DNA of 63,655 bases, filler included. It is 7 parts of 7 records of this genome, joined end to end, with 100 filler letters (N's around TTAATTAATTAA, not from the genome) between each part and the next. Parts side by side here need not be neighbours in the genome. Positions count along the whole stretch, not along the records: positions 1 to 12,409 come from DRR723986_17561; 6 more parts are not named here. The stretch is one strand, 5' to 3'. This document shows positions 1 to 40,248 of this stretch, piece after piece. Under the pieces are notes generated by a model. The model worked only from the letters and a program-made list of their open reading frames with translations. It did not search any database and had not been told where the DNA came from. Position 1 is the stretch's first letter; every line of letters begins with the position of its first letter. The translations under genes and the position numbers were made by a program.

Positions 1-180
1 TGCATTGGCGTTTGCGTTTTTGAACGTGCTTCGCGAGATTCCACCTTGCATTGAAGCAGCAGAGGTCCATGAGATGGTTTACACCATACTCATTGTCTCA
101 GATTACCTATGGAGTTCGTCTCACGTAGCATTCACCAATTCGCGTGGACGTAGATTCATACAGTTGAGAAGGCCTACGCC

Positions 181-309
181 AAATTAAGTGCTGTGCGCGG
201 AAAATTAAGTACTTTGTGTGGTCGTAATTTTAAGGGTGCCTAATTGAGGGTTTTGTGTGGAAATTGAGTATTTTGTGTTGAGCAATTTAGTACTTTGTGT
301 GGGCATCCA
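181..309 (-). mobile_element. Putative Tn7-like transposon end with five TnsB-type binding repeats; element would extend left beyond the window
   Basis: Five ~20-bp imperfect direct repeats at 181, 202, 241, 261 and 283 (plus-strand consensus about AATTNAGTANTTTGTGTGG). Read on the minus strand from 309 the end is TGGATGCC-CACACAAAGTACTAAATTG..., i.e. a TG terminus plus 8-bp cap followed by tandem sites, as in Tn7/Tn6677 ends. No transposase is visible. Confidence 0.6.
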
Positions 310-339
310 GTAAAATCCGCCCCGCCCTTGATCCTGATC

Positions 340-367
340 ACTGCGCATAATGTATATTATGTTAAAT
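340..367 (+). other. dif: dif site (XerC/XerD chromosome dimer resolution site)
   Basis: ACTGCGCATAA-TGTATA-TTATGTTAAAT; matches E. coli dif GGTGCGCATAATGTATATTATGTTAAAT at 26 of 28 positions; intergenic. Confidence 0.93.
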
Positions 368-465
368 ACAGCGTTCGGATGCATAGGGTACGCACTTTAT
401 GGAAGCTGTCACTCCAACCTCTTCGGTACAGACGTTGTGCGCATCCCTGCGTACGCCAGCCAAAC

Positions 466-621
466 CTAAAAAACATAAATGAAGCCAACGCCTATTTCCG
501 CCTCATAATCATTTCGAGTGATTGGGCTGTCGGATACATCACTCCCGAACGCTTCGTACAGAGCTTCTCCGAAGATCTGCCAGTTCTCGCCCAGGTAATT
601 GCGGTAGCTGACATTGAAGAA
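466..621 (-). pseudogene. C-terminal remnant of a MipA/OmpV-like outer membrane protein
   Basis: Start-less frame FFNVSYRNYLGENWQIFGEALYEAFGSDVSDSPITRNDYEAEIGVGFIYVF*, with the DSPI motif and a terminal aromatic beta-signal; absent from the ORF track. Confidence 0.6.
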
Positions 622-646
622 GGCCCGGTTTGATTGGTTTTCGGCG

Positions 647-1174
647 TTACTGGTTTCCTTGGCGCTGATTCTGAAGCATTTGTTCCATCATCAACTGCAT
701 CTGGTCCATGCGTTGTTCCATGCGCTGCAGCCGCTGATCTTCGCTCATGGCCGGGTTGCCTTGCCGCATTCCCTGTCCGCTGTTGCCAGGCCCCTGATTC
801 TTCATCTGGCCCTGACCGGGATTTCGGTTGCCCATGCCGAGGCCCTGGCCGTTCATTCCCATGCCTTGCCCCATCATTCCCGCGCCCTGGCCCATCATGC
901 CTGGCCCCATTCCGGACTCTCGCATTATCTGCAGGTGTTCCTGCATGTGCTCCATATGTTCCTGCCGCAGGCGTTGGCGTTCTTCTCTGGTCGTCGCATT
1001 CTGCATCTGCTGCATGGTCTGGTTCATTCGATCCATGTTCTGCTGCATTTGCTGAATCCGTTCCTGGTTCATCATTCCTGCCTGACTGCCCTGTCCGGGC
1101 CCACCCTGGGCAAAGGTGGCGAGCGGTAGCGAAATCAGGCTGGCGCAGACCAGCGTTCTCAAACTGTGTTTCAT
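647..1174 (-). CDS. Secreted Met/Gln/Gly-rich helical protein (possible periplasmic metal-binding protein)
   Basis: ATG 1174 with GGGGAGAG RBS; signal peptide ending ATFA-Q; MMGQG repeats; EHMEHMQEH. Confidence 0.75.
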   Translation of the reverse strand: MKHSLRTLVCASLISLPLATFAQGGPGQGSQAGMMNQERIQQMQQNMDRMNQTMQQMQNATTREERQRLRQEHMEHMQEHLQIMRESGMGPGMMGQGAGMMGQGMGMNGQGLGMGNRNPGQGQMKNQGPGNSGQGMRQGNPAMSEDQRLQRMEQRMDQMQLMMEQMLQNQRQGNQ

Positions 1175-1345
1175 GACTTTCTCTCCCCGTTGTGACTTTT
1201 CCATCAATAACAGAAAGAGCGAATGCCCTTTTGATGTACGTCAGATTCAAGTATAGGCAGTGTTCCGTAGTTTACTAACCTTGGAGGCTCCCGCTAATGG
1301 GTTTAGAATCGCTGCCTAATCTTCCCCGGGGTTCAGGATTCCAAA

Positions 1346-29944: not shown

Positions 29945-30789
29945 GCCGGGATTGCGATCAACCGATGGCGAGTGCAGGCAAGACCGCTGTAGTCCACAAC
30001 GTGGCTGACGTGTGCCGGGATCACCTTGAACCCAGCTTGCTGAAGCAAGTGGTCCATTTCCCTACTCGGGATAAAGTACTCGAACTGACACGTGGGCGAA
30101 GTTACCTGAACCAGGTGGCCTGTTTCTTCATCGATCAGTGTTCGTCCCAAAAAATGGGTCGCCATTTGCGTATACTCTTCAGGGCTGCGCGCCAGATCCG
30201 AAACAGACCAGACGGAGCCTGACCACCTGTCCGGCCAGCGTGACATGGCTTTCGCGACCGGTTGGGCCGGTGCTGCAATGGGTTTCGCATCGGTCGATAG
30301 GCTGATCAGGGACAGACCGTTGGGCTTCAGTAGCGCTCTCGTTGATTGAAGCAGTGCAGGCGCATGTGCTGGTGGCATACAGTTCAGAACGAAATCCTGA
30401 ACGATCAGATCAAAGCTGTCAGCTTCGAGAGCATCCCCCAAATTGCATGCATCCAGTTGCAGAAAATCGATCTCGGGCATTTCAATGCCCATTTCCGTGT
30501 AGATTTCCGGAATGGGGAGACGGTCAATGACAAGAATGCTTGGATCCGTCACCGCGTGCTCCCCAAGCACCTGCCGCAGCGCTCGCGCATTGGACGGCGT
30601 GGAATAACCTATCACCAGACAGCGTGCCTTGGGCGACAAACCCGCCAGTGCCGAGTTGAATTCTGGGGCGCTGGAAAACGCGGCAAGGCTGCTGGCCAAC
30701 GTAGGAGCGTCAGGTTTGAAATGCGGGCTACCTGGAACATAGCGCGCGACCGAGTGCAGGGGGGTGGCCAGCGTGTTTGCGGTGTTCAT
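29941..30789 (-). CDS. Class I SAM-dependent methyltransferase-like protein
   Basis: DFLQLDA, DSFDLIV, LLKPNG, LLQQAGF; motif I glycine loop is degenerate. Confidence 0.7.
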   Translation of the reverse strand: MNTANTLATPLHSVARYVPGSPHFKPDAPTLASSLAAFSSAPEFNSALAGLSPKARCLVIGYSTPSNARALRQVLGEHAVTDPSILVIDRLPIPEIYTEMGIEMPEIDFLQLDACNLGDALEADSFDLIVQDFVLNCMPPAHAPALLQSTRALLKPNGLSLISLSTDAKPIAAPAQPVAKAMSRWPDRWSGSVWSVSDLARSPEEYTQMATHFLGRTLIDEETGHLVQVTSPTCQFEYFIPSREMDHLLQQAGFKVIPAHVSHVVDYSGLACTRHRLIAIPA

Positions 30790-31043
30790 TCTTGCCCCCA
30801 GAGAAAGATCACCTGACGATAATTCAATGGGTTGTGGATGGAAAGCAAGTCTCTCTTTATGCGGGGAATGCCAGGAAACGGGTTCGTTTCCTCGCGTCTG
30901 AGGTCAGTGCCAACGGGATCGTCTGGACGGGATTGGAGAGCGAGGACAGCATTGCGGAACTGTGCCGCCGCAAGTGTATTGCCCAGAGCCTGTTTTTCAG
31001 CGGGTCGAAGGCTAACCGCGCCGCCGCTCTCGCCGAGTGGCGC
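30786..31043 (-). CDS. Partial hypothetical protein (C-terminus only)
   Basis: Open frame from the contig edge ending ...PRIKRDLLSIHNPLNYRQVIFLWGQE*, with ATGA overlap onto the methyltransferase. Confidence 0.6.
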   Translation of the reverse strand, partial: APLGESGGAVSLRPAEKQALGNTLAAAQFRNAVLALQSRPDDPVGTDLRREETNPFPGIPRIKRDLLSIHNPLNYRQVIFLWGQE

Positions 31044-31143
31044 NNNNNNNNNNNNNNNNNNNNNNNNNNNNNNNNNNNNNNNNNNNNTTAATTAATTAAN
31101 NNNNNNNNNNNNNNNNNNNNNNNNNNNNNNNNNNNNNNNNNNN
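31044..31143. other. Artificial contig spacer
   Basis: 44 N + TTAATTAATTAA + 44 N. Confidence 0.99.
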
Positions 31144-31144
31144 T

Positions 31145-33487
31145 AGTTTAGATTTTGGATTTTATCCAGATTCAGTTTATGATGCATTAAATGCTGATAT
31201 AGTTGGTAGTTGGGCAGCATGTAATCAAACCTCAATTTATTGGATACAATTTCAAAACATAGGTACAACAGTACCTTCAGGGGTAGTTCACCTTAAACTA
31301 GATGACAGCATAACCTTTGTGAACGCATTTGTGCCTCCGGATTCAATATCAGGTCAAAATATCTATTGGAGTTATGATAGTCTAAATTATTTTGGAACTG
31401 ACGGAATGAAATTGCGCGTACTCATGCCTAATTTCATGAGTATCAACGACACAGTCACAAGTTATTTATCGGTGACGGCTGATTCATTATCCGGAACTGT
31501 TTTCACCGCATATGACACGTTATCCCAATTTATTGTATGCGCTTATGACCCAAATGATAAAATAGCAGAACCAGCTGGTATAGATAGCCTGGGATTCATC
31601 CCGCTATCTACGAATGAAATAGAATATACAATAAGATTTCAAAATACAGGCACCGACACTGCTCATTCAATTGTTATAGAAGATTACCTAGACCAAAATT
31701 TAAATTGGTCAACTCTACAGCCAATATCATCAAGCCATTCTATGGATTTGGAAGTTTATCCAAATGGTCTAATTAAATTCGTTTTTGATGATATCAAACT
31801 CCTCGACAGTAACGCCAATGAACCTGAAAGTCATGGTTATGTAAAGTATAAAATTAACCTTTTACCGAGCTTAAACTCAGGCACTCAAATCAAAAATACT
31901 GCACATATATTTTTTGATTCGAACCCAGCTGTAATCACAAACACAAAACTTCATACCCTTTTTGACTGTGATAGTAGTCTCAAAAATGCAATTATTCCAA
32001 CCGTAGGTTGCGAAAATGACGTGGTAATAGGATCGATTGTGGACGCAACTTCGGCTAGCGACTATAATTGGGAGCTTGACTCATTTTATATTTATTCTGG
32101 TCAAAATTGGAATTGGATTGCAGATACTGCTGGTACATTTAACCTTAAAGTAACAATTTCCAATCAGTTTTGCACAACAGACACTATTCTGTCTTTAAAC
32201 ATTGAAGAAGATAATCCACCCGAAATAATAGATTCAATTTATATATGCCAGGGTGAAAGTACCTCTATCTTTGGAAATTTAGAGAGTATCCCAGGAATTT
32301 ATTCTAACACCTTGATGTCTATTAACGGTTGTGATTCAACAATTCAAATTGTTCTGTTGGAGAATCCCACATTTGTTACTGATCTACCAGATGTATACGT
32401 TTGTCCAGGTGAGAGTGCGATAATATTTGGAGGGTCTAAGACAATTGAGGGGATTTATCACGACACCTTAACCTCTATGAACGGTTGTGATTCAATATTG
32501 CAGAAAGAGCTCATTTTTTATCCTATTCTGACAACAACTTTACCTATAATGTATAATTGCCAGGGTGATAGTACAATGGTCTTTGGTAATTTCGAGAATA
32601 TACCCGGTTTTTATTATGACACTTTGAATTCAATTAACGGCTGTGATTCAATTTTAGAAGTTGAACTAGACGAATTGGCCCCACAATATTCTTTGCTAAA
32701 TGATGCCGTTATTTGTCCTGGTGACAGCACAATTATATTTGGTAATTATCAAGTGCTTCCGGGTATTTATGTTGATACTTTGAGCTCATCTCTTGGCTGT
32801 GACTCAATTTTAATGATGAGCCTTGTCCATTTACCTACTCAAAGTAGCCAAATACAATATGAAATATGCCAGGGCGACAGTATCTTAATCTATGGTAACT
32901 TTGTTTCATCTTCTGGAATATACACAGACTCATTATCCAATTCATACGGTTGTGATTCAATAATTAATACTGAATTAATTGTTAATTCCTTACCCAACAT
33001 ACAAATTCAAAATTTAAATCTAGATACGTCATGTATTTATCATGACCAAATACTTTTGACAGGATCTCCTTTAGGGGGTAATTTTTCAGGAACAGGTGTC
33101 ACCGGAAGTTATTTCAATCCAACTATAGCAGGGGTAGGTAACCATTGGGTTTACTATACATTTACTGACAATAACCTCTGTAGTTCAATTGATTCAATAG
33201 ACATTTATATTAACGACTGTTTAGGACTGACGACCTCAGAACTAGAAAAAATTAAAGTTTATCCTAATCCAGCTACATCTGAGATAATAATAGATTTAAC
33301 GAATACATCAATGAATACGGTCCAGGTAGAATTATATGATGGAATTGGTAAAAAACTTAAAGAAGTATCTGATATTACCGCGAAACAATTCTTATTTGAA
33401 ACAGCACAATTATCACGTGGAGTTTACTATCTGAAATTATCATATTTAGATGAACATCATCTTGTTAAACTGGTAATTCAACAATAA
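31145..33487 (+). CDS. T9SS type A sorting protein with GCDS repeats, 5'-truncated
   Basis: Frame open from the contig start; YDPNDK...YTIRFQNTG domain; five GCDS repeats; VYPNPA...GVYYLK CTD. Confidence 0.88.
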   Translation, partial: SLDFGFYPDSVYDALNADIVGSWAACNQTSIYWIQFQNIGTTVPSGVVHLKLDDSITFVNAFVPPDSISGQNIYWSYDSLNYFGTDGMKLRVLMPNFMSINDTVTSYLSVTADSLSGTVFTAYDTLSQFIVCAYDPNDKIAEPAGIDSLGFIPLSTNEIEYTIRFQNTGTDTAHSIVIEDYLDQNLNWSTLQPISSSHSMDLEVYPNGLIKFVFDDIKLLDSNANEPESHGYVKYKINLLPSLNSGTQIKNTAHIFFDSNPAVITNTKLHTLFDCDSSLKNAIIPTVGCENDVVIGSIVDATSASDYNWELDSFYIYSGQNWNWIADTAGTFNLKVTISNQFCTTDTILSLNIEEDNPPEIIDSIYICQGESTSIFGNLESIPGIYSNTLMSINGCDSTIQIVLLENPTFVTDLPDVYVCPGESAIIFGGSKTIEGIYHDTLTSMNGCDSILQKELIFYPILTTTLPIMYNCQGDSTMVFGNFENIPGFYYDTLNSINGCDSILEVELDELAPQYSLLNDAVICPGDSTIIFGNYQVLPGIYVDTLSSSLGCDSILMMSLVHLPTQSSQIQYEICQGDSILIYGNFVSSSGIYTDSLSNSYGCDSIINTELIVNSLPNIQIQNLNLDTSCIYHDQILLTGSPLGGNFSGTGVTGSYFNPTIAGVGNHWVYYTFTDNNLCSSIDSIDIYINDCLGLTTSELEKIKVYPNPATSEIIIDLTNTSMNTVQVELYDGIGKKLKEVSDITAKQFLFETAQLSRGVYYLKLSYLDEHHLVKLVIQQ

Positions 33488-33638
33488 ACCGAAAAGTCAA
33501 TTGTATCCAAAAAATTTAATATTTTACAATCAGCAGGGGTTACCTTTTGTTTTATCTGACATATAGAGGTATAAAAACATGCTTATCGCCGAATTATCCT
33601 TAGAGATAATGAGCTATTAAGGATGAAAAATCAAGCTG

Positions 33639-34193
33639 ATGACGGACCAAGAAATCATAAAAGCCATCAAAAATGGCAAGCGAGAGAAGGCGCTTAAAGA
33701 GCTCTATGCTGAGTTTCCGAAAATTAAGGTAAACATCTTATCATCTGGAGGAGATGAAATGATTGCAAGGCAATTGTTTCATGACAGCCTCATTCTTTTA
33801 GTAGAAAAAGTCTCAAAGCCAGATTTTGAATTGACTGCTAAACTTTCCACCTTTTTATACGGGATAAATCGATTTCTATGGAAAAATGAATTGCGTAAGC
33901 GTCAAAAAAACCCTGAGCTTGAATGGAAAGACACTTTGATTTTATCAGCTGAAGACATTGGATATAATGAAGAAAAGGAAGAGAAAATTAAGTTGTTAGA
34001 ACGCATACTCACGCAGGTTACTGAAAAATGTAAAAAGATATTTGAACTGTTTTATTTCAAAAAAGAAAGCATGGCGGATATTGCCAAAAAACTCGAATTT
34101 TCAAGTATCAATTCTGCCAAAACGCAGAAATATAAATGCATGGAAAAAGCCATTCAATTAGCCAAACAAACACAAACCAACGCAACAGCATGA
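33639..34193 (+). CDS. ECF-type sigma-70 factor
   Basis: 184 aa; region 2 KLSTFLYGINR, region 4 SMADIAKKL...AKTQKYKC. Confidence 0.9.
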   Translation: MTDQEIIKAIKNGKREKALKELYAEFPKIKVNILSSGGDEMIARQLFHDSLILLVEKVSKPDFELTAKLSTFLYGINRFLWKNELRKRQKNPELEWKDTLILSAEDIGYNEEKEEKIKLLERILTQVTEKCKKIFELFYFKKESMADIAKKLEFSSINSAKTQKYKCMEKAIQLAKQTQTNATA

Positions 34194-35497
34194 GAGCAGA
34201 TTTAGAACTTTTAGAACAAATTGACTTATATCTTGGAGGCAAAATGTCGGCTAGTGAAGCCAGTGCGTTTAAGGCAAAAATGGCTGCTAACCCTGAACTT
34301 CAAAGCTTGGTGAGCGATCAGGAACTCCTAATTCAGACCGTGAACCGACAAGCCATGATGGCCGAGTTGAATTCCATTGCAGGTGCGGCGGGAGCTGCTG
34401 GTGCAGGAGCAGCGAGTTGGGGAATTACTCAATGGGCGCTAACTGCAATTATTAGCATCAGCACAGTTGTTGGTGGTTATTTTATTTATGATCATTTCAG
34501 TACAGAAGAGACAGTTGAAATTACGCCGCAAGACGAATTCCCTCAACATGATCTGTTGGTTGAAAACAATGTGGATACCGGTGATTTTATTTCGTTTGAG
34601 CTTGCTGAAGCAACAGATGAATATGAAAATGAATTGAACGCTTATGAAGTAGAAAAAGAGGAAGATGAAATCGAGGACAAAGTATATAATTTCGATAAAC
34701 CTGAATTCGTTGAAGCCGAGAAAATCAAGAAAGAAGATCCGATTAAAGTCAATACCGAAAAGCCGCTTAAGTTGGTGAAGGATCCGGTAAAAAATAAAAC
34801 CGTTATTAGCAATGCGAATCGAAAAGCAACTTATCCAGGGGGATTAATTGAAATGAAAACATTCATTTCTAAAAACCTTATGTATCCACGAACTCCTAAA
34901 GACAAAGGTTTACAAGGAACGGTCAAAGTATATTTTTTAATCTCTGCTGAGGGTAAAATCTCGCATGTTGAATCTGATTGTTTTATCATGAAAGACAAGT
35001 CAGGTAAACCGCTTTCGTCTGGTAAGATGATTGCAAATGTCAAATCACAAAAGTACTTTGAGAAAAATGCAGAGCGCTTGTTTAGAACATCATCTCCATG
35101 GGAACCTGCTACCGATTCAGATGGTAATCCTATTGTATCGGGACAAACTTGGTACGTTAATTTTGATTATTACGGGCAAAGTTCGGCTTATCAACTAGAA
35201 AATGAGGCTCCTAAAAAATCTGCCTGTAACATCCAATCTGAATCTGATTGGGAAAAAGTTGATGTCCAAACTATGAAAGTAAAAAGTCAATCTAAAAAGT
35301 TCAAACTCATTGGCGAATCAATGCTGAAGACCAATAAGGATATCAAAGAAGTAGCTGATTTATCTGACAATCAATACAAAGAGATTTGTCAGTTAGCCGC
35401 AAAATATAAGGCATGTACCGTCTTTATTGACGTAAATAACTTTTGGGGCGCAGGAGATGGTACTTTGTATTACTATTTTGGGAGTTTTAATGACTAA
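34190..35497 (+). CDS. Putative anti-sigma membrane protein with TonB C-terminal-like domain
   Basis: ATGA overlap with the sigma gene; IDLYL.GKMS..E...F N-terminus; one TM; YPGG...NLMYP...GTVKVYFLI. Confidence 0.7.
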   Translation: MRADLELLEQIDLYLGGKMSASEASAFKAKMAANPELQSLVSDQELLIQTVNRQAMMAELNSIAGAAGAAGAGAASWGITQWALTAIISISTVVGGYFIYDHFSTEETVEITPQDEFPQHDLLVENNVDTGDFISFELAEATDEYENELNAYEVEKEEDEIEDKVYNFDKPEFVEAEKIKKEDPIKVNTEKPLKLVKDPVKNKTVISNANRKATYPGGLIEMKTFISKNLMYPRTPKDKGLQGTVKVYFLISAEGKISHVESDCFIMKDKSGKPLSSGKMIANVKSQKYFEKNAERLFRTSSPWEPATDSDGNPIVSGQTWYVNFDYYGQSSAYQLENEAPKKSACNIQSESDWEKVDVQTMKVKSQSKKFKLIGESMLKTNKDIKEVADLSDNQYKEICQLAAKYKACTVFIDVNNFWGAGDGTLYYYFGSFND

Positions 35498-36715
35498 TCA
35501 ACGATACAACCAATACGTTGGGTTGATGTTGTTAATTTGACCATCAGACGTAATTTGACGAATCTCAAAATGCACTTCAGAATTCCCAGATGAATTGACA
35601 AGTAGCGCACCAATTTCTTGTTTAGCAACAATTTTATCACCCGATTTTACATAGGTTTCTTGCAAGTTTGAATAGATGGTTCTGTAAGATCCATGCTTAA
35701 CAATTATCGCTTTTCCAGCACCTGGAATCACAATCACCGAAGTGACTTCACCATCATATACTGCCCTTACTGTAGATTGTTTTACTGTCGTGATATCCAC
35801 TCCATTGTTATAAGTGTACACATTGATGTGAACAGGATGAGGTTGTTTCCCAAACCCTTTGGTGATTTCACCTTTCTTCACGGGCCATGGTAATTTACCC
35901 TTATTCGCTTCGAAACCTTTGTTGCTCAAAGTAACTTCTTTGGTATCCTCTAGGGTTGGAGGTTTGTTATTGTTCTTCTTTTTCTCAGCTAAAATTTCTT
36001 TGTTAATTGCCGCATTAATTGCATTTTGAATCTCTCTCGATTTTTTCTTCTGTGCGGCTAATTCATCTTGCAATTGTTGTTGTTTACCTTTCAAAACTTC
36101 AATGCTCGATTTCTGTTTCTCACGGTCTTTTACATATTTCTTTTGCTCGTCAACTTTACTTGAAGCCAGGTTTTGTTTCTCTGCTTTTTTAGATTCCAAC
36201 AAGGCCAGTTTTGCATTCAATTCTTCTATGCTTAACTCAATTTTTTTGATTTGATCTTCCCGATATTTTTTCAATTGATTGAGGTACTCTGCTCTTTTAT
36301 TCGCTTGATTGAAAGATTCTGAAGACAGTATAAAAACGAGTGAGGCCTGCGAACTCCGCATCTTATACGCTTGCCGTATCATTCTTCGATACTGCTCCTT
36401 TTGGTGCTCAATCTCGGCTTTTAAAATTTCAATTTCTTTGGATGTTGTGGTTATCTCCGCATCCAGCTGACTCAGCTGAATTTGAATGTTATTCAATAAA
36501 TCTTTTCGGTACTCAATTTTTCGTTCCAATAAACTCAAGTTATTGGTCAAATTAGACTCGTCAGTTTTGGTAGATTCTAAAAGCTTTTCTGTGAAGTTGA
36601 TCTTCTCTTCAAGCTCCTTTTGCTTCTTTCTCAGACGGTCACTCTCCTTCCCTTGCCCCATTGCTGAGACTGTAAAAAACATCAAAAAAATCAATATGAA
36701 TTTATTCACATTCAT
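35498..36715 (-). CDS. envC: EnvC-like murein hydrolase activator (coiled coil + M23 domain)
   Basis: Long coiled coil; KGKLPWPV, NNGVDI, VHFEI. Confidence 0.85.
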   Translation of the reverse strand: MNVNKFILIFLMFFTVSAMGQGKESDRLRKKQKELEEKINFTEKLLESTKTDESNLTNNLSLLERKIEYRKDLLNNIQIQLSQLDAEITTTSKEIEILKAEIEHQKEQYRRMIRQAYKMRSSQASLVFILSSESFNQANKRAEYLNQLKKYREDQIKKIELSIEELNAKLALLESKKAEKQNLASSKVDEQKKYVKDREKQKSSIEVLKGKQQQLQDELAAQKKKSREIQNAINAAINKEILAEKKKNNNKPPTLEDTKEVTLSNKGFEANKGKLPWPVKKGEITKGFGKQPHPVHINVYTYNNGVDITTVKQSTVRAVYDGEVTSVIVIPGAGKAIIVKHGSYRTIYSNLQETYVKSGDKIVAKQEIGALLVNSSGNSEVHFEIRQITSDGQINNINPTYWLYR

Positions 36716-37520
36716 TGTAACTATCTGGAATACTGATGCTGATTTTTTTATAATCGTTGAGTGTTGTTGTTCCGTAATCTAAACTGATAAATGTTGAATC
36801 TTTGGGAGATACTACTTTAATTTCAGTTTCTTGCGGCAAACTATAACCATCCACTTCTTGTCGCTTCACAAAGTCGATTTGAATGGAAGTAAGCATTGAA
36901 GGTGCATTGATCAAAATTTGACCCAATTCCATAGTGCCACAATCAATCTTATACCTGAAGAAAAAATCTTCAACCTCATCTTCTTCTAAGGCACCAGTCG
37001 TCAAACGATCAATTGCCTTTTTATCGTGCGAAGCCAGCACATAATAATGGTCATCCTTTAAAGGATATAATTCTTGAATCGTATTCAACCCAAAAGGCTG
37101 ACCAAGGAGTAACTCTTGCATCAATCCATAATTCAAATCCATTCCAAATTTTTCAACTAAAAAACCGAAGTCTTTCTTGAAGTAACAACGCTTAATCTTA
37201 TTTGTAAAAGCAATGGTGTCAGTATCCGCTAAATAAGCTGCGCCAACAATGCCCGCAACTTTTAAAATGCCGGCAAAAGCTGAATCCGTTTTTAATTTCA
37301 AGGATGTTTTAAAGGAATTTGATGATTCACTATCCTTAACCGTAACTCCGAGCTTTGCATAATAAAATTCAAACGGAGTTTTTGACTTTGAACGCAGCAA
37401 TTCAATAGTTTCTTCAGTATCCTTTTTAGGACAATCTGCCGTACCTCCAATTTTTCCAGTTTTACATGAGTAAACCAGAAACACAAATCCTAGTAAGTAA
37501 ATCCAATTTCTATTCTGCAT
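36702..37520 (-). CDS. DUF4292-like lipoprotein
   Basis: Lipobox VYSC; conserved position between TPR and envC in Bacteroidota; C-terminal IPDSY. Confidence 0.75.
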   Translation of the reverse strand: MQNRNWIYLLGFVFLVYSCKTGKIGGTADCPKKDTEETIELLRSKSKTPFEFYYAKLGVTVKDSESSNSFKTSLKLKTDSAFAGILKVAGIVGAAYLADTDTIAFTNKIKRCYFKKDFGFLVEKFGMDLNYGLMQELLLGQPFGLNTIQELYPLKDDHYYVLASHDKKAIDRLTTGALEEDEVEDFFFRYKIDCGTMELGQILINAPSMLTSIQIDFVKRQEVDGYSLPQETEIKVVSPKDSTFISLDYGTTTLNDYKKISISIPDSYNECE

Positions 37521-39246
37521 AATACTTCTGATCTGCTATTTTTTTGTTTAGAATTGATGTCGCCCGACCCAACTCAGCCGCCTTTTTCCAATTCTCTAAG
37601 GCCTTATCTTTTTGACCCAACTGGCTAAAAGCATCACCTAAATGTTCGTAGATTTCTGGATCTCTTTTTTCATAAACCAAGGCATTTTCAAACTTTTTCT
37701 TTGCTTTTTCAAAAGCACCTGTTTTAAGATAAACCAACCCCAAGGCATCTAAAAAGAACGGATTTGTCGGTGCTTGTTTCAAGGCTGCTTCTAGTTCAGC
37801 AATGGCCTGTTGATCTTTATCTTGTTCTACAAGTAAAATGGCCCGCGTTTTTACCACATTCCCATTAAACTCATCCATAGATTTTGCCTGATCTAAATAA
37901 TTATAAGCCTCTTCGTAATCTTTTTGCATCCCATAAAGTTTACCTATTTGATGTAAGAATTCAGCCTCTAATTGTGGATCATTCAGCACCAGTCCTTTTC
38001 CTAAAAACAACCATTCTTCTGATTCGCTAAATTGCTTTTGTTCATAGGCCGCTATCCCAGATAATAAGTAAACAACAGGCTGAGCAGGAAATAAATCGAG
38101 CGCTTCTTTTCCGTCTTTATACATGCCCTCATAGGCATCTGCATCATACTGCAAATACAATAATTGAAGCCAAGTATTATAAGAATTAGGATTAATAGAA
38201 ACCACTTTTTTAAATTGATCAATCGCTTTATTCGTTGAACCTTGATCTCTCAAGAAATAAGCATAGGCCAAGTGCAGCGTGTCATTTTTAATTTGCTCAT
38301 CATATATCAATTCAAACAAGGTTTCTAGTCCTTTTTCAATTTTAGGAGCATCTTGTGTTGCCTCAAAAGCATAAGGTTGCAGGCCTCTGATTAATTCTAT
38401 TTTTCGTGCAATGCTTACATCATCAAATTGAAATCCTTTTTCAAGATGAACGAAAGAGGCATCCAAATCTCCTTTTCGCAAGTCAATATCAGCCAGCATT
38501 AAATAAGCTTCTCCACTATTCGGGTTTTGTTTGAGAGACTCTTCCAATATTTTGTTGGCCGCATCTACTTGATTGGTTCTTAGAAAATAGTCTGCTATAA
38601 TCAACTTGTTTTCAACATTTGAAGGATTATCATCTATCAGTGTTTGCAATTCATTTTGAGCTGCCTCTTTATCTCCTAATTCTTGATACAAATCATGTTT
38701 GGTCAAACTTAAGTTGGGGGATTTTCCTGTTTCAACTTCAATTTCATCCAACATCTCAATGGCTCGCTTATAGTCATTTGAATGGATTAAGGATTCTGCA
38801 TACTTGAACTTAACGTCTATGTTTTTTTCCTCTTCAATTGCTTTTCCAAAAAACTCGGCGCTTTTGTGATAATTGCCGGTTTGATAATACAAATCAGCTA
38901 AGCGCAACACATACCAACGATTTTCTTCATCCAATTTAAATGCACTCTCTGCATGACTGATTGATTGCTCCGTATTTCCTAAAGCTTGATAGACATCTGA
39001 TAAGGCAAAATGTGTCGCGTCACTTTCTTGGTTGATACTTAAACATTTTTGAAACAGTTCTAACGAGAGGTCAAAATTGCCCCGCATCTTTTCACGAATA
39101 GCTTCATGAAAATTCTTTTTAAACTCATCTTCTACAGGCGTTTTCACGCGTTGTTCTTGAATCTCTTTGCTGCCCCCACAAGAAGTCAACATCAATCCAC
39201 CTAACAAGATCAATGCACCAAGAAAATATGATCGTCTTTTTTTCAA
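37510..39246 (-). CDS. TPR-repeat lipoprotein
   Basis: Lipobox LTSC; many TPRs; EHLGDA...WKKA. Confidence 0.9.
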   Translation of the reverse strand: MKKRRSYFLGALILLGGLMLTSCGGSKEIQEQRVKTPVEDEFKKNFHEAIREKMRGNFDLSLELFQKCLSINQESDATHFALSDVYQALGNTEQSISHAESAFKLDEENRWYVLRLADLYYQTGNYHKSAEFFGKAIEEEKNIDVKFKYAESLIHSNDYKRAIEMLDEIEVETGKSPNLSLTKHDLYQELGDKEAAQNELQTLIDDNPSNVENKLIIADYFLRTNQVDAANKILEESLKQNPNSGEAYLMLADIDLRKGDLDASFVHLEKGFQFDDVSIARKIELIRGLQPYAFEATQDAPKIEKGLETLFELIYDEQIKNDTLHLAYAYFLRDQGSTNKAIDQFKKVVSINPNSYNTWLQLLYLQYDADAYEGMYKDGKEALDLFPAQPVVYLLSGIAAYEQKQFSESEEWLFLGKGLVLNDPQLEAEFLHQIGKLYGMQKDYEEAYNYLDQAKSMDEFNGNVVKTRAILLVEQDKDQQAIAELEAALKQAPTNPFFLDALGLVYLKTGAFEKAKKKFENALVYEKRDPEIYEHLGDAFSQLGQKDKALENWKKAAELGRATSILNKKIADQKYYAE

Positions 39247-40248
39247 TTAATCAATTGTTGTATAATCCCCAATACTGATATCTCTTGCAGCACTTAACAC
39301 GTTTGCATGATTACCAATCATTGAATCTTTAATGTTTGCATTTTCAATTGTTGAGTGTTTCTGTATGTTAGAATTCACAATTACTGAATTGGTTACCGAA
39401 GTATTTGCACCAACTGAAACATGCGGTCCTATCACTGAGTTCGCAATTACCGCGCCATCCCCAATATAACATGGCGGAATAACAACAGAATTTTCAATGC
39501 TTGCAGTGTCAGAAACTAATTTAGTATCCTTATCAAATTCTAAAACACGTTGGTTCGTATGTACTGTAACAACTTTGTTTCCGCAGTCTAACCATTCTGT
39601 AACTTCACCTGGTTTGAATTTGGTTCCTTTTTCTGTCAATCTTCTAAATCCATCAGGCAATTGGTATTCTCCTCCTTTCATGACGTTATTGTCAATCAGG
39701 TATTGTAATTCGGTTCTTAAGCCTGCGCCATCTTTGATGTAGTAAATTCCGATCATAGCTAAATCAGAAACGAATTCTTTTGGCTTCTCAACAAAGTCGG
39801 TGATTGTTCCTTCAGCATCTAATTTTACCACTCCAAAAGCAGACGGGTCTTCAATTTGTTTCACCCATAAAACACCATCTACATTCGGGTCCATGGTAAA
39901 ATCTGCTCTGAACAAGGTGTCTGCAAAAGCAACAACAACTGGTCCGTCTAGCATTTCTTGAGCACATAAAACTGCATGAGCCGTTCCTAAAGCTTCATCT
40001 TGATAATAGATATTTCCTTTCGCCCCAAGAGACTCTGCAACGGCTATAAGTTCTGCTTCAACTTCTTTTCCAAAATCACCAATAATAAACCCTATTTCGG
40101 TTACTTTTTCGGTAGATGTTTTTGCGATATCTTCTACCAAACGGTGAACAATCGGCTTTCCTCCAACGGGAACAAGTGGCTTAGGAACTGTTAATGTGTG
40201 AGGACGTAAACGTGATCCTCTTCCTGCCATTGGTACTATTATTTTCAT
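39247..40248 (-). CDS. Sugar-phosphate nucleotidyltransferase
   Basis: MAGRGSRLRP...PKPL, VEKP, C-terminal hexapeptide repeats. Confidence 0.92.
   Translation of the reverse strand: MKIIVPMAGRGSRLRPHTLTVPKPLVPVGGKPIVHRLVEDIAKTSTEKVTEIGFIIGDFGKEVEAELIAVAESLGAKGNIYYQDEALGTAHAVLCAQEMLDGPVVVAFADTLFRADFTMDPNVDGVLWVKQIEDPSAFGVVKLDAEGTITDFVEKPKEFVSDLAMIGIYYIKDGAGLRTELQYLIDNNVMKGGEYQLPDGFRRLTEKGTKFKPGEVTEWLDCGNKVVTVHTNQRVLEFDKDTKLVSDTASIENSVVIPPCYIGDGAVIANSVIGPHVSVGANTSVTNSVIVNSNIQKHSTIENANIKDSMIGNHANVLSAARDISIGDYTTID

What the first reader, a model, noticed from the sequence alone, without database searches (positions are those of the whole stretch)
181..367. Tn7-like transposon end 30 bp from the chromosomal dif site: a possible dif-targeting Tn7 family
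Seen: five ~20-bp repeats (three tandem, a 19-bp gap, two tandem), capped by an 8-bp terminus ending in CA at 309, then 30 bp, then a near-canonical dif. Known: Tn7 and Tn6677 ends have a TG terminus, an 8-bp cap and tandem TnsB sites of similar pattern, and Tn7 TnsD binds roughly 25-55 bp from the insertion point. Elements known to use dif (CTXphi, TLC, GGI) integrate into it by Xer recombination, not beside it. Inference: dif lies about +28 to +55 from the predicted target centre (5-bp duplication GTAAA, 310-314). This fits a TnsD/TniQ selector that reads dif or bound XerCD, giving a universal safe site that leaves dif intact. Caveats: the terminus is TGG rather than the usual TGT, and no tns gene is in view.
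Basis: partly seen in the sequence, partly recalled or inferred. Interest (0 to 1): 0.85.

Follow-up and report, generated by a model that had tools for sequence, protein, structure and literature searches.

The report
Tn7-like transposon end beside dif
The repeats are the end of a Tn7-type jumping gene whose family nearly always sits about 35 bases outside dif, the site where bacteria untangle joined chromosomes; I found no paper naming dif as a Tn7-type landing site.

Summary
Observation confirmed. Five ~19-nt repeats lie at 182-302. A 7-nt cap ends in CCA at 309. Then come 30 nt and a dif site at 340-367.

Interpretation supported. The window starts inside the element, so its own tns genes are unseen. 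Marinobacter sp. SBS5 has a homologous end beside dif, and it bounds a 47,161-bp element. That element has inverted repeats at its far end and tnsA, tnsB, tnsC and a TniQ-like gene. M. litoralis Sw-45 has the matching site empty.

- Two relatives carry clean 5-bp target duplications (ATCCT, ATTAG) around TGG...CCA termini. Each abuts an older element's end, so the same 5 bp were hit twice.
- The packed-repeat end faces dif in all 27 ends measured. On the XerC side 15 of 23 lie 35-37 nt from dif. On the XerD side 4 of 4 lie 33-35 nt from dif.
- Marker gene and dif lie within 40 kb in 14 of 15 genomes where both share a contig.

The family also carries two small tyrosine recombinases that look active. 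They stay 85-97% identical in elements whose TnsABC are only 30-40% identical. What reads dif is not shown.

Nine answered paper searches found no dif-homing Tn7-like element. IS1202-family insertion sequences do insert beside dif. This scan noted the family twice before on other DNA.

The parts
2..187 (+). 3' part of an open frame (61 aa) running off the window start, inside the element; no family match
   Evidence: 0 Pfam families. tblastn against all fetched loci gave nothing below E 0.5. It may not be a gene.
143..228 (+). Inner right end (copy A): interior flank, two TnsB-type repeats (182-200, 203-221) and a cap-like TCGTAAT (222-228)
   Evidence: Window 143-219 aligns to the whole right end of the G174 element (L118 8419-8345, 78%), and 181-226 aligns to it again. 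TCGTAAT matches the caps TCGTATA, TCGTACA and TCGTCTA of other ends. That this is a separate nested end is an inference.
242..302 (+). Outer right end (copy B): three tandem TnsB-type repeats (242-260, 262-280, 284-302), packed as in the right ends of relatives
   Evidence: 84% identical over window 243-310 to the dif-proximal end of the 47-kb element in L008/G001.
303..309 (+). 7-nt terminal cap GCATCCA; the last base of the transposon is 309 (5'-TGG...CCA-3' terminus)
   Evidence: Cap consensus NCGTCYA directly after ...GTGG at 23 XerC-side ends. The terminus position is fixed by the 5-bp duplications of the G014 and G046 elements.
310..314 (.). Predicted 5-bp target duplication GTAAA (right copy)
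   Evidence: Inference from 5-bp duplications in relatives. The left copy is outside the window.
310..339 (.). 30-nt spacer between the transposon terminus and dif; not conserved between genomes
340..367 (+). Chromosomal dif: XerC arm 340-350, central region 351-356, XerD arm 357-367. The arm assignment follows E. coli dif and is recalled.
   Evidence: One copy per genome in relatives. dif lies next to the CitMHS gene neighbourhood in L006, L007, L011 and L044 too.

Best explanation
Window 143-309 is the dif-proximal ("right") end of a Tn7-like cut-and-paste transposon. It is probably two nested right ends: an inner one ending at 228 and an outer remnant at 242-309. The ~19-nt repeats are the binding sites of the family's TnsB-type DDE transposase. 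The element ends ...GTGG-GCATCCA at 309.

The family has this layout: spaced-repeat end, cargo, tniQ-like, tnsC, tnsB and tnsA (all transcribed toward that end), then Yrec1 transcribed the other way, variable cargo, Yrec2, and the packed-repeat end. It inserts with a 5-bp duplication and in one orientation. The insertion point is about 35 nt outside the 28-bp dif site, so dif stays intact.

Inferred steps:
- The TniQ-like protein is the most likely reader. Its N-terminal TniQ zinc domain would dock on TnsC. Its unique 380-residue C-terminal part would read dif DNA or the XerC/XerD-dif complex.
- A TnsC assembly of fixed size would then place TnsAB about 35 nt away, as TnsD does at attTn7.
- Repeated hits on the same 5 bp push older copies outward. 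This builds arrays of whole, gutted and recombined elements beside dif.
- The two conserved small tyrosine recombinases, which look catalytically intact, are part of the family. Their role is open: co-selectors, or recombinases that reshuffle and lock the arrays.

Shown here: the ends, the gene set, the duplications, the empty site, and the position and orientation relative to dif. Not shown: any binding, any activity, and the tns genes of this window's own copy.
For: 1. Homologous end beside dif. L008 (Marinobacter sp. SBS5) has three tandem repeats plus a cap, then dif. The same genome holds four spaced, inverted copies about 47 kb away on the same contig. The element is 47,161 bp.

2. Gene set.
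- TnsB: Pfam Mu-transpos_C at 22.5 bits against a cut-off of 21.7. A 19-member profile hits the Pseudoalteromonas CAST TnsB at E 4.1e-8 over 370 residues, then retroviral integrases.
- TnsC: AAA_22 at E 3.3e-14.
- TnsA: weak family hits at E 1.3e-6 and 0.0011. E61, D94 and E107 are invariant and K109 nearly so, in ...PD...ExK.
- TniQ-like: all 8 PDB profile hits are TnsD or TniQ, best E 0.048. The top 5 of 48,161 chains by VIA are TniQ or TnsD, with Z 5.5-4.0 over residues 1-136. The nearest Atlas cluster is named TniQ, score 0.98.

3. Duplications. ATCCT flanks the G014 element and ATTAG flanks the G046 element. Each left copy abuts the cap of an older right end.

4. Empty site. G001's left flank aligns to L012 1-122 (89%) and its right flank to L012 131-204 (97%), which includes dif.

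5. Position on the XerC side (n = 23):
- 30 nt: the window
- 32 nt: one end
- 35 nt: five ends
- 36 nt: six ends
- 37 nt: four ends
- 41, 42, 46, 46, 53 and 59 nt: one end each (46 twice)
On the XerD side the four ends lie at 33, 33, 34 and 35 nt. Sources; script; G003, G004, G373 and the right-hand G061 end counted by hand.

6. Linkage. Where the marker gene and dif share a contig they are 0.8-40 kb apart in 14 of 15 genomes, in a consistent orientation. The exception is G273 at 148 kb, and it still has a right end 35 nt from dif.

7. The flanks between terminus and dif are unrelated across genomes. dif is the only shared feature.
Against: - The window's own element is unseen. Its interior (bases 1-142) matches no relative, and the outer end may be a dead remnant.
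- Spacing is not constant: 8 of 23 XerC-side ends fall outside 35-37 nt.
- Six elements with both ends in hand show no matching duplication: G001, G041, G131, G134, G004 and the right-hand G061 element.
- The putative selector is the least conserved core protein, at 22-75% identity and with at least two C-terminal types. dif itself is nearly invariant.
- The best conserved proteins are the two recombinases, which could be the real dif readers.
- A palindromic 13-7-13 site upstream of Yrec2 also lies directly beside dif in five genomes, partly as hybrid-looking sites. This hints at a second, recombinase-driven route.
- TnsA, TnsB and TnsC as single sequences find nothing in the PDB, and the TnsA profile finds nothing either.
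- The termini are TGG or TAG, not the TGT of Tn7.
Confidence: 0.85

Rival explanations
1. The elements reach dif mainly by site-specific recombination. Yrec2 (with Yrec1) would recombine its palindromic site (AAAATCCGTAATA-ATGTTAT-TTTAACGGATTTT, upstream of Yrec2) with a pseudo-site 5-6 nt from dif. The Tn7-like machinery would be a passenger or a second mobility mode.
For: - The site is conserved about 45-75 nt upstream of Yrec2 in 7 of 7 aligned elements.
- The same sequence lies directly beside dif in G171, G037, G084, G061 and in part G041. G171 and G061 carry a different right arm, like a hybrid att site.
- In G171 and G037, Yrec2 sits about 85 nt from dif with no transposon end between them.
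- Yrec2 occurs in 30 of 191 Marinobacter genomes, against 16 of 191 with a TnsB hit.
- Both recombinases keep the R, HxxR, H and Y residues.
Against: - Clean 5-bp duplications flank TGG...CCA termini in G014 and G046.
- In 23 genomes the transposon end lies between Yrec2 and dif.
- Most flanks next to dif have no such site: window, G001, G014, G046, L012, L016.
- The G001/L012 comparison shows a simple insertion 46-59 nt from dif.
- The fused forms are equally explained by deletion between two copies of the site.
Confidence: 0.07
2. The family has only a regional preference for the replication terminus, like the TnsE pathway of Tn7, which favours termination regions and breaks. It would not read dif.
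For: Tn7's TnsE pathway is known to favour the terminus region (recalled). The spacing to dif varies from 30 to 59 nt.
Against: - 15 of 23 XerC-side ends lie within a 3-nt window, and all 27 ends face dif.
- Two independent insertions hit the same 5 bp in G014 and in G046.
- No TnsE-like gene was noticed in the core module; only the G001 core genes were used as queries, so TnsE was not searched for.
Confidence: 0.03
3. The element is an IMEX integrated into dif by XerCD, like CTXphi, TLC or the gonococcal island. The repeats would be its own regulatory or replication sites.
For: It lies immediately next to dif, and tyrosine recombinase genes are present.
Against: - Only one dif-like site per genome at up to 3 mismatches.
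- Both flanks of the G001 element are chromosomal sequence 46-59 nt to one side of an intact dif.
- Inverted multi-site ends, 5-bp duplications and TnsABC are transposon features.
Confidence: 0.02
4. The repeats are a core chromosomal feature of the dif region, for example binding sites for a host protein.
For: They lie beside dif in many Marinobacter genomes.
Against: - They are absent beside dif in L006, L011, L012 and L016, and in the 63 nt available in L007.
- They recur inverted at the far ends of 9-47-kb insertions.
- They are present as a solo end on a Halomonas plasmid.
Confidence: 0.01

Closest known systems
Tn7 and Tn7-like transposons with TnsD/TniQ-directed attachment sites (glmS, parE, comM, guaC, ffs, rsmJ, tRNA genes; listed in PMC11014353, passages read)
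   Same: TnsA-, TnsB-, TnsC- and TniQ-type proteins. Ends with several transposase sites, spaced at one end and packed at the other. The packed end faces the landmark. 5-bp duplication. One orientation. Insertion a few tens of nt from a highly conserved sequence that stays intact. Islands form by repeated insertion.
   Different: - The landmark is dif, a non-coding recombination site, on either side depending on the subfamily.
- Termini are TGG or TAG with a 7-nt cap, not TGT.
- The tns operon sits at the spaced-repeat end and is transcribed toward it.
- The proteins are so divergent that single-sequence searches of the PDB find nothing.
- There are two conserved tyrosine recombinases.
- New copies land next to resident ends, so target immunity is weak, absent or overcome.
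Tn6022 family (TniQ plus TnsF, an inactivated tyrosine-recombinase-like selector for comM) and its XerC-like/dif-like module (PMC10293859 and PMC11014353, passages read)
   Same: A Tn7-like core that travels with tyrosine-recombinase-fold proteins. A Xer-type site on the element. Recombination proposed to diversify tandem elements.
   Different: - TnsF is about 500 aa with N-terminal zinc fingers and lacks the catalytic pocket. Yrec1 (246 aa) and Yrec2 (265 aa) are small and keep the R, HxxR, H and Y residues.
- They are not in the tns operon.
- The target is dif, not comM.
- 'dif', 'XerC' and 'XerD' occur 0 times in PMC10293859.
IS1202 family (ISAjo2 type) dif and pdif hunters (PMC10132070, abstract read)
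   Same: A TnsB-related DDE transposase, one orientation, 5-bp duplication, insertion beside rather than into XerC/XerD sites, on the XerC side.
   Different: Those are 1.5-kb insertion sequences with a single transposase. They have no TnsA, TnsC or TniQ, insert 5 bp from the XerC arm and have TGT...ACA ends. Here the elements are 5-47 kb, use a four-protein core, and insert about 35 nt away on either side.
Tn5053/Tn402 'res-site hunters' (TniA, TniB, TniQ, TniR; recalled, and named in the earlier scan note e1-1988141)
   Same: A TniQ-type system that homes to a site-specific recombination site occupied by its recombinase. One orientation.
   Different: Those lack TnsA, carry a serine resolvase and target plasmid res sites at scattered positions. 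This family has TnsA, tyrosine recombinases and a narrow position beside chromosomal dif.
IMEX elements (CTXphi, TLC, gonococcal genetic island; recalled)
   Same: They use dif as a universal chromosomal address.
   Different: They integrate into dif by XerCD and are flanked by two dif-like sites. These elements sit outside a single intact dif.

Membership tests
Tn7-like transposons | TnsB: DDE transposase of the Mu/Tn7 type | tested here: met
   In relatives, not in the window. Mu-transpos_C 22.5 bits against cut-off 21.7. Profile A2 hits a CAST TnsB at E 4.1e-8 over 370 residues and retroviral integrase cores. Invariant D206, D276 and E313.
Tn7-like transposons | TnsA: restriction-endonuclease-like second transposase subunit | tested here: inconclusive
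   Hits lie below the curated cut-offs: NCBIfam TnsA_like 28 bits against 110, E 1.3e-6; Pfam E 0.0011. E61, D94 and E107 are invariant and K109 nearly so, in a PD...ExK pattern across 19 members. The profile finds no PDB chain.
Tn7-like transposons | TnsC: AAA+ adaptor | tested here: met
   AAA_22 at E 3.3e-14, 53.7 bits against cut-off 27; 330 aa, encoded between tnsB and the tniQ-like gene. That it belongs to the TnsC/TniB branch specifically was not tested.
Tn7-like transposons | TniQ/TnsD-domain target selector | tested here: met
   The N-terminal zinc domain only. 8 of 8 PDB profile hits are TnsD or TniQ, best E 0.048. The top 5 of 48,161 chains are TniQ or TnsD, Z 5.5-4.0. Atlas cluster named TniQ, 0.98. 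Pfam TniQ matched 1 of 12 members, at E 0.42. All scores are weak taken one by one.
Tn7-like transposons | Ends with multiple transposase sites, spaced at one end and packed at the other; 5'-TGT...ACA-3' termini | tested here: inconclusive
   The site architecture is met. The termini are TGG...CCA or TAG...CTA, not TGT...ACA.
Tn7-like transposons | 5-bp target site duplication | tested here: met
   ATCCT (G014) and ATTAG (G046). Not recoverable in 6 other elements. Not testable for the window's copy.
Tn7-like transposons | Orientation-specific insertion at a set distance from a conserved attachment sequence | tested here: met
   All 27 ends face dif. 15 of 23 XerC-side ends lie at 35-37 nt and 4 of 4 XerD-side ends at 33-35 nt.
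Tn7-like transposons | tns genes belonging to this window's own element | not testable with these tools
   The window starts 309 bp inside the element. No genome is held, and the metagenome look-up was empty.
IS1202 family dif/pdif hunters | 1.5-kb insertion sequence with a single 441-457-aa transposase, inserted 5 bp from the XerC arm | tested here: not met
   The elements are 5-47 kb with a four-gene core and lie 30-59 nt from dif. Family definition from the PMC10132070 abstract.
IMEX (Xer-integrated elements) | Integration into dif, leaving the element flanked by two dif-like sites | tested here: not met
   One dif per genome at up to 3 mismatches. Both junctions of the G001 element lie to one side of dif.
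Tn6022-type TnsF selector | About 500-aa protein with N-terminal zinc fingers and a tyrosine-recombinase fold that lacks the catalytic pocket, encoded after tniQ | tested here: not met
   Yrec1 is 246 aa and Yrec2 is 265 aa. They keep the catalytic R, HxxR, H and Y residues and lie outside the tns operon. Definition from PMC10293859 passages.
Tn5053/Tn402 res hunters | tniA-tniB-tniQ with serine resolvase tniR and no tnsA; targets res sites | tested here: not met
   A TnsA-like gene is present in all 19 aligned members. No serine resolvase was seen in the core. The target is dif.

The most novel reading that the evidence does not exclude
The landmark is not a DNA sequence read by one selector. 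It is a Xer-type recombinase-DNA complex. Either host XerC/XerD on dif, or the element's own two active tyrosine recombinases, would bend the DNA and recruit TniQ and TnsC to either flank. The same recombinases and their 13-7-13 site would give the elements a second mode of movement or rearrangement: array shuffling, cargo exchange, or locking next to dif. That would be a Tn7-like system combining DDE transposition with active tyrosine recombination at the chromosome's dimer-resolution site.
Probability: 0.3. Interest if true: 0.85.

Novelty: new variant of a known kind. Interest (0 to 1): 0.72.

Why it matters
dif is nearly universal in bacteria with circular chromosomes. It is short, present in one copy and almost invariant. 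A Tn7-like system that homes to its flank without damaging it would be a natural "safe harbour" integrator with a very broad host range. It would be a protein-guided counterpart to attTn7 and to CRISPR-guided transposons.

It would also extend the idea of res-site hunting to heteromeric Tn7-type machines: Tn5053 at serine-resolvase sites, IS1202 at XerC/XerD sites. That makes a standing question testable, namely whether TniQ and TnsC can use a recombinase-bent DNA complex as a target signal. PMC10293859 raises this only as an evolutionary scenario in its discussion.

The arrays beside dif show how the terminus region can collect cargo islands. The two recombinases are conserved out of step with the transposase, and that is unexplained.

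Tried and rejected
- **The window's own genome.** No genome is held. An exact 60-mer search of metagenome contigs found 0. megablast to E. coli genomes found none, and blastn to phages found none. So the rest of this copy stays unseen.
- **Plasmids.** blastn found only one hit, a solo three-repeat end on a Halomonas plasmid. That plasmid has no TnsB homologue.
- **Single-sequence phmmer against the PDB.** Nothing for TnsB, TnsC, TnsA or Yrec2. The TnsA profile also found nothing.
- **Foldseek on the TniQ-like model.** No match at E <= 0.001. TniQ chains rank 1, 3, 4, 5, 6 and 8 at E 0.2-1.7. The C-terminal 380 residues matched nothing above Z 3.5, but that part was not folded alone.
- **Complex prediction of the TniQ-like protein with Yrec1.** The job was not folded by the tool, so there is no result.
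- **Terminus checks in the window.** KOPS count (4 on the - strand, 2 on the + strand) and GC skew are too weak to say anything.
- **Target duplications.** None recoverable for G001, G041, G131, G134, G004 and the right-hand G061 element. Nested end fragments occur in G041, G114 and G086, and 8 bp are missing in G001 relative to L012. These suggest recombination between tandem copies, but that is an inference.
- **dif in more distant hosts.** The pattern found no dif in G226, G320, G437, G353 or G115, so their elements could not be placed.
- **Side of dif against TniQ-like type.** The XerD-side proteins are the most distant (22-31% identity), but they do not form one clear group.
- **Papers.** Nine answered searches found no report of a Tn7-like element homing to dif. 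Peters et al. 2014 on heteromeric transposase elements is not in the library, and supplements were not seen. Either could list such an attachment site.
Full report
**Observation.** The window begins with a 61-codon open frame that runs off its left edge. Five copies of a 19-nt word (AATTNAGTRYTTTGTGTGG) follow, starting at 182, 203, 242, 262 and 284. These are the only 5 matches in the 63,655 bases at up to 3 mismatches. Shuffles give a mean of 0.15, and 0 of 100 reach 5. The last copy ends at 302. It is followed by GCATCCA (303-309), 30 nt, and ACTGCGCATAA-TGTATA-TTATGTTAAAT at 340-367. The cap is 7 nt rather than 8, and the internal gap is 20 nt.

**Host and limits.** The neighbouring CitMHS transporter gene (1346-2599) is 98% identical to that of a Marinobacter MAG and 96% to M. 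daepoensis. No whole genome is held for the window. An exact 60-mer from bases 100-159 is absent from the metagenome collection. Only 309 bp of the element can be read here, so everything about its genes comes from relatives.

**A complete relative.** Among the 80 loci, L008 (Marinobacter sp. SBS5) has three tandem copies of the repeat, a cap (ACGTCTA) and then dif. It is 84% identical to window 243-310.
- A search of that genome (G001) with this end found four further copies on the same contig. They are inverted, spaced 55-260 nt apart and about 47 kb away.
- Between the two ends lie a 234-aa TnsA-like protein, a 577-624-aa protein with a Mu-transposase C-terminal domain, a 330-aa AAA+ protein and a 519-aa protein without a Pfam match.
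- Profiles built from family members make the assignments firmer. The TnsB profile hits a CAST TnsB at E 4.1e-8 over 370 residues, then retroviral integrase cores.
- The 19 TnsA-like proteins share an invariant E, PD and E, and a nearly invariant K, in the PD...ExK pattern. They find no solved structure.
- For the 519-aa protein, all 8 PDB profile hits are TnsD or TniQ, best E 0.048. In the predicted model (pLDDT 67, pTM 0.71), the N-terminal 136 residues give TniQ or TnsD as the top 5 of 48,161 chains, at Z 5.5-4.0. The nearest Atlas cluster is named TniQ. Its other 380 residues match nothing.

**Empty site and termini.** The G001 element is 47,161 bp. Its left flank aligns to L012 (M. litoralis Sw-45) positions 1-122 at 89%. 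Its right flank aligns to 131-204 at 97%, and that stretch contains dif. Eight bases of L012 have no counterpart. So the element is a simple insertion to one side of an intact dif.

Two more distant elements fix the termini.
- In G014 the sequence reads ...GTGG-TCGTCCA ATCCT TGGACGA-CCAC... at the left junction and ...GTGG-TCGTCCA ATCCT at the right junction.
- G046 shows the same pattern with ATTAG.

The ends are therefore 5'-TGGACGA...TCGTCCA-3' with a 5-bp duplication. In both genomes the left duplication abuts the cap of an older right end, so two insertions used exactly the same 5 bp.

Six other elements with both ends in hand have no matching duplication. Nested end fragments in G041, G114 and G086 suggest recombination between tandem copies.

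**Association with dif.**
- The G001 TnsB found homologues in 16 of 191 Marinobacter genomes: 8 at 65-100% identity and 8 at 29-38%. It found homologues in 12 of 401 genomes sampled from the order.
- Yrec1 found 5 of 401 genomes sampled from the class. The query genome G001 is counted in each of these three tallies.
- The dif core occurs once per genome wherever it was found.
- Where the marker gene and dif share a contig they are 0.8-40 kb apart in 14 of 15 genomes, with a consistent orientation. The exception, G273 at 148 kb, still has a three-repeat end 35 nt from dif.
- In other genomes the genes and dif lie on different contigs, but the packed end sits beside dif (G131, G174, G114, G058, G249, G530).
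- Five genomes gave no dif with the pattern used.

**Distances.** I measured from the last base of the cap to the 28-bp dif.
- XerC side: 30 (window), 32, 35 five times, 36 six times, 37 four times, then 41, 42, 46, 46, 53 and 59. That is 15 of 23 at 35-37 nt.
- XerD side: four ends of other subfamilies at 33, 33, 34 and 35 nt.
- Sources; G003, G004, G373 and the right-hand G061 end were counted by hand.
- In all 27 the packed-repeat end faces dif.
- The spacers are unrelated between genomes, so dif is the only common feature.
- dif without any repeat beside it is seen in L006, L011, L012 and L016, and in the 63 nt available for L007.

**The window's array.** Window 143-219 and window 238-302 both align to the single right end of the G174 element. 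The first two repeats are followed by TCGTAAT, which is close to the caps TCGTATA, TCGTACA and TCGTCTA. I read this as two right ends in tandem: an inner one ending at 228 and an outer, truncated one at 242-309. This is an inference. A natural five-site end is not excluded.

**Two tyrosine recombinases.** All autonomous elements carry Yrec1 (246 aa; Phage_integrase at E 8.5e-17; XerD- and XerA-like catalytic domain). It is transcribed divergently from tnsA. Most also carry Yrec2 (265 aa), which starts about 570 bp inside the packed end. The variable cargo of 4-36 kb lies between them.
- Both keep the catalytic R, HxxR, H and Y residues. They are unrelated to each other by BLASTP.
- Within Marinobacter they stay 85-97% identical in elements whose TnsA, TnsB and TnsC are only 30-40% identical to those of G001. 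One Yrec2 there survives only as a fragment, and one element carries a second Yrec1 copy at 47% identity.
- At the DNA level, the only blocks shared between such elements are the two genes plus about 80-160 bp upstream of each. The blocks end at the stop codons.
- Yrec2 occurs in 30 of 191 Marinobacter genomes. These include small or gutted elements without tns genes, and arrays of several elements beside dif.
- Upstream of Yrec2 lies a conserved 13-7-13 palindrome. The same sequence lies 5-6 nt from dif in five genomes. In two of these it has a different right arm, and in two (G171 and G037) Yrec2 is fused to the dif flank with no transposon end between them.
- I cannot tell whether this reflects recombinase-driven integration, deletion between two copies of the site, or something else.

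**Mechanism.** The geometry matches TnsD-directed Tn7 insertion: the landmark begins about 33 nt from the centre of the duplication, and the packed end is proximal. I therefore think the TniQ-like protein is the adaptor that couples a dif-borne signal to TnsC and TnsAB.

It is the least conserved core protein, at 22-75% identity with at least two C-terminal types. The XerD-side versions are the most distant, which fits a role in choosing the side but does not prove it.

Whether the signal is dif DNA, XerC/XerD bound to it, or the element's own recombinases is open. My rough odds are 35, 30 and 25 in 100. A complex prediction of the TniQ-like protein with Yrec1 was not folded by the tool.

**Comparison with what is known.** The family meets the Tn7-like criteria except for the TGT termini. 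The evidence for TnsA is weak.
- It is not an IS1202-type insertion sequence. Those insert 5 bp from the XerC arm with a single transposase (PMC10132070, abstract read).
- It is not an IMEX, because there is one intact dif and both junctions lie on one side of it.
- It is not a Tn5053-type res hunter, because TnsA is present and there is no serine resolvase.
- It is not a Tn6022-type TnsF system (PMC10293859 and PMC11014353, passages read).
- Nine answered paper searches found no Tn7-like element described as homing to dif. The target-selector survey PMC10293859 does not contain the words dif, XerC or XerD. Papers outside the library and supplements could still hold such a report.
- Two earlier notes of this scan, on other DNA, reached the same reading (e1-2384970, e1-2636582). 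A third describes a TniABQ element 32 nt from a plasmid tyrosine-recombinase site (e1-1988141).

**Verdict.** This is a new variant of a known kind: a Tn7-like family whose attachment site is the flank of dif, carrying two conserved and apparently active tyrosine recombinases of unknown role.

Noticed in passing
L090:1257-2054 (+) and L091:18277-19017 (-), and their homologues in the loci: Two small tyrosine recombinases (Yrec2 265 aa, Yrec1 246 aa) flank the cargo. Within Marinobacter they are 85-97% identical in elements whose TnsABC are only 30-40% identical. The shared DNA blocks end exactly at their stop codons.
   Followed up: partly
L090, about 45-75 nt upstream of the Yrec2 start; also directly left of dif in G171 (L166), G037 (L168), G084 (L165), G061 (L135) and G041 (L114): A conserved 13-7-13 palindrome lies upstream of Yrec2. 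It recurs 5-6 nt from dif in five genomes, partly with a different right arm. In G171 and G037, Yrec2 is fused to the dif flank with no transposon end between them.
   Followed up: partly
L134+L144 (G014), L137+L145 (G046), L160-L161 (G003), L168-L170 (G037): Arrays of several elements or end remnants are stacked beside dif. Small elements have both ends and Yrec2 but no tns genes (G084 about 5 kb, G086 about 7 kb).
   Followed up: partly
L135 (G061), L142 (G058), L139 (G373), L140 (G249): Other subfamilies have their packed end 33-35 nt from the XerD side of dif. G061 and G058 have elements on both sides of the same dif.
   Followed up: partly
L001 15000-15070 (Halomonas sp. KO116 plasmid NZ_CP011054.1): A solo three-repeat end with cap TCGCCTA sits on a 205-kb plasmid that has no TnsB homologue. 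It lies about 475 bp upstream of a site-specific integrase gene and near annotated anti-phage genes.
   Followed up: partly
L143 6975-7673 (-): The XerD-side element of G058 has a second Yrec1 paralogue next to tnsA, only 47% identical. A 94% copy lies 1.6 kb away.
   Followed up: no
window 492-1250 (-): A 252-aa open frame is rich in Gly, Gln, Met and Pro repeats and has 21-nt periodic DNA repeats. It has no Pfam match. It lies between dif and the CitMHS gene and is shared with L002, L003 and L044.
   Followed up: no
window 1-620 compared with L002 and L003: The two closest relatives by the CitMHS gene (98% and 96%) have no dif and no repeats upstream of it. Homology to the window starts only at about 620-647, so the dif neighbourhood has been rearranged between close strains.
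   Followed up: no
window 30001-40000: G+C drops to 38%, against 50-62% in the other 10-kb bins. This is a possible foreign island.
   Followed up: no
L092 5297-6106 (-) and 6353-7030 (+): Between the tniQ-like gene and the spaced end, the G001 element carries a fragment with a Type ISP restriction-enzyme C-terminal domain and a metallophosphoesterase gene.
   Followed up: no
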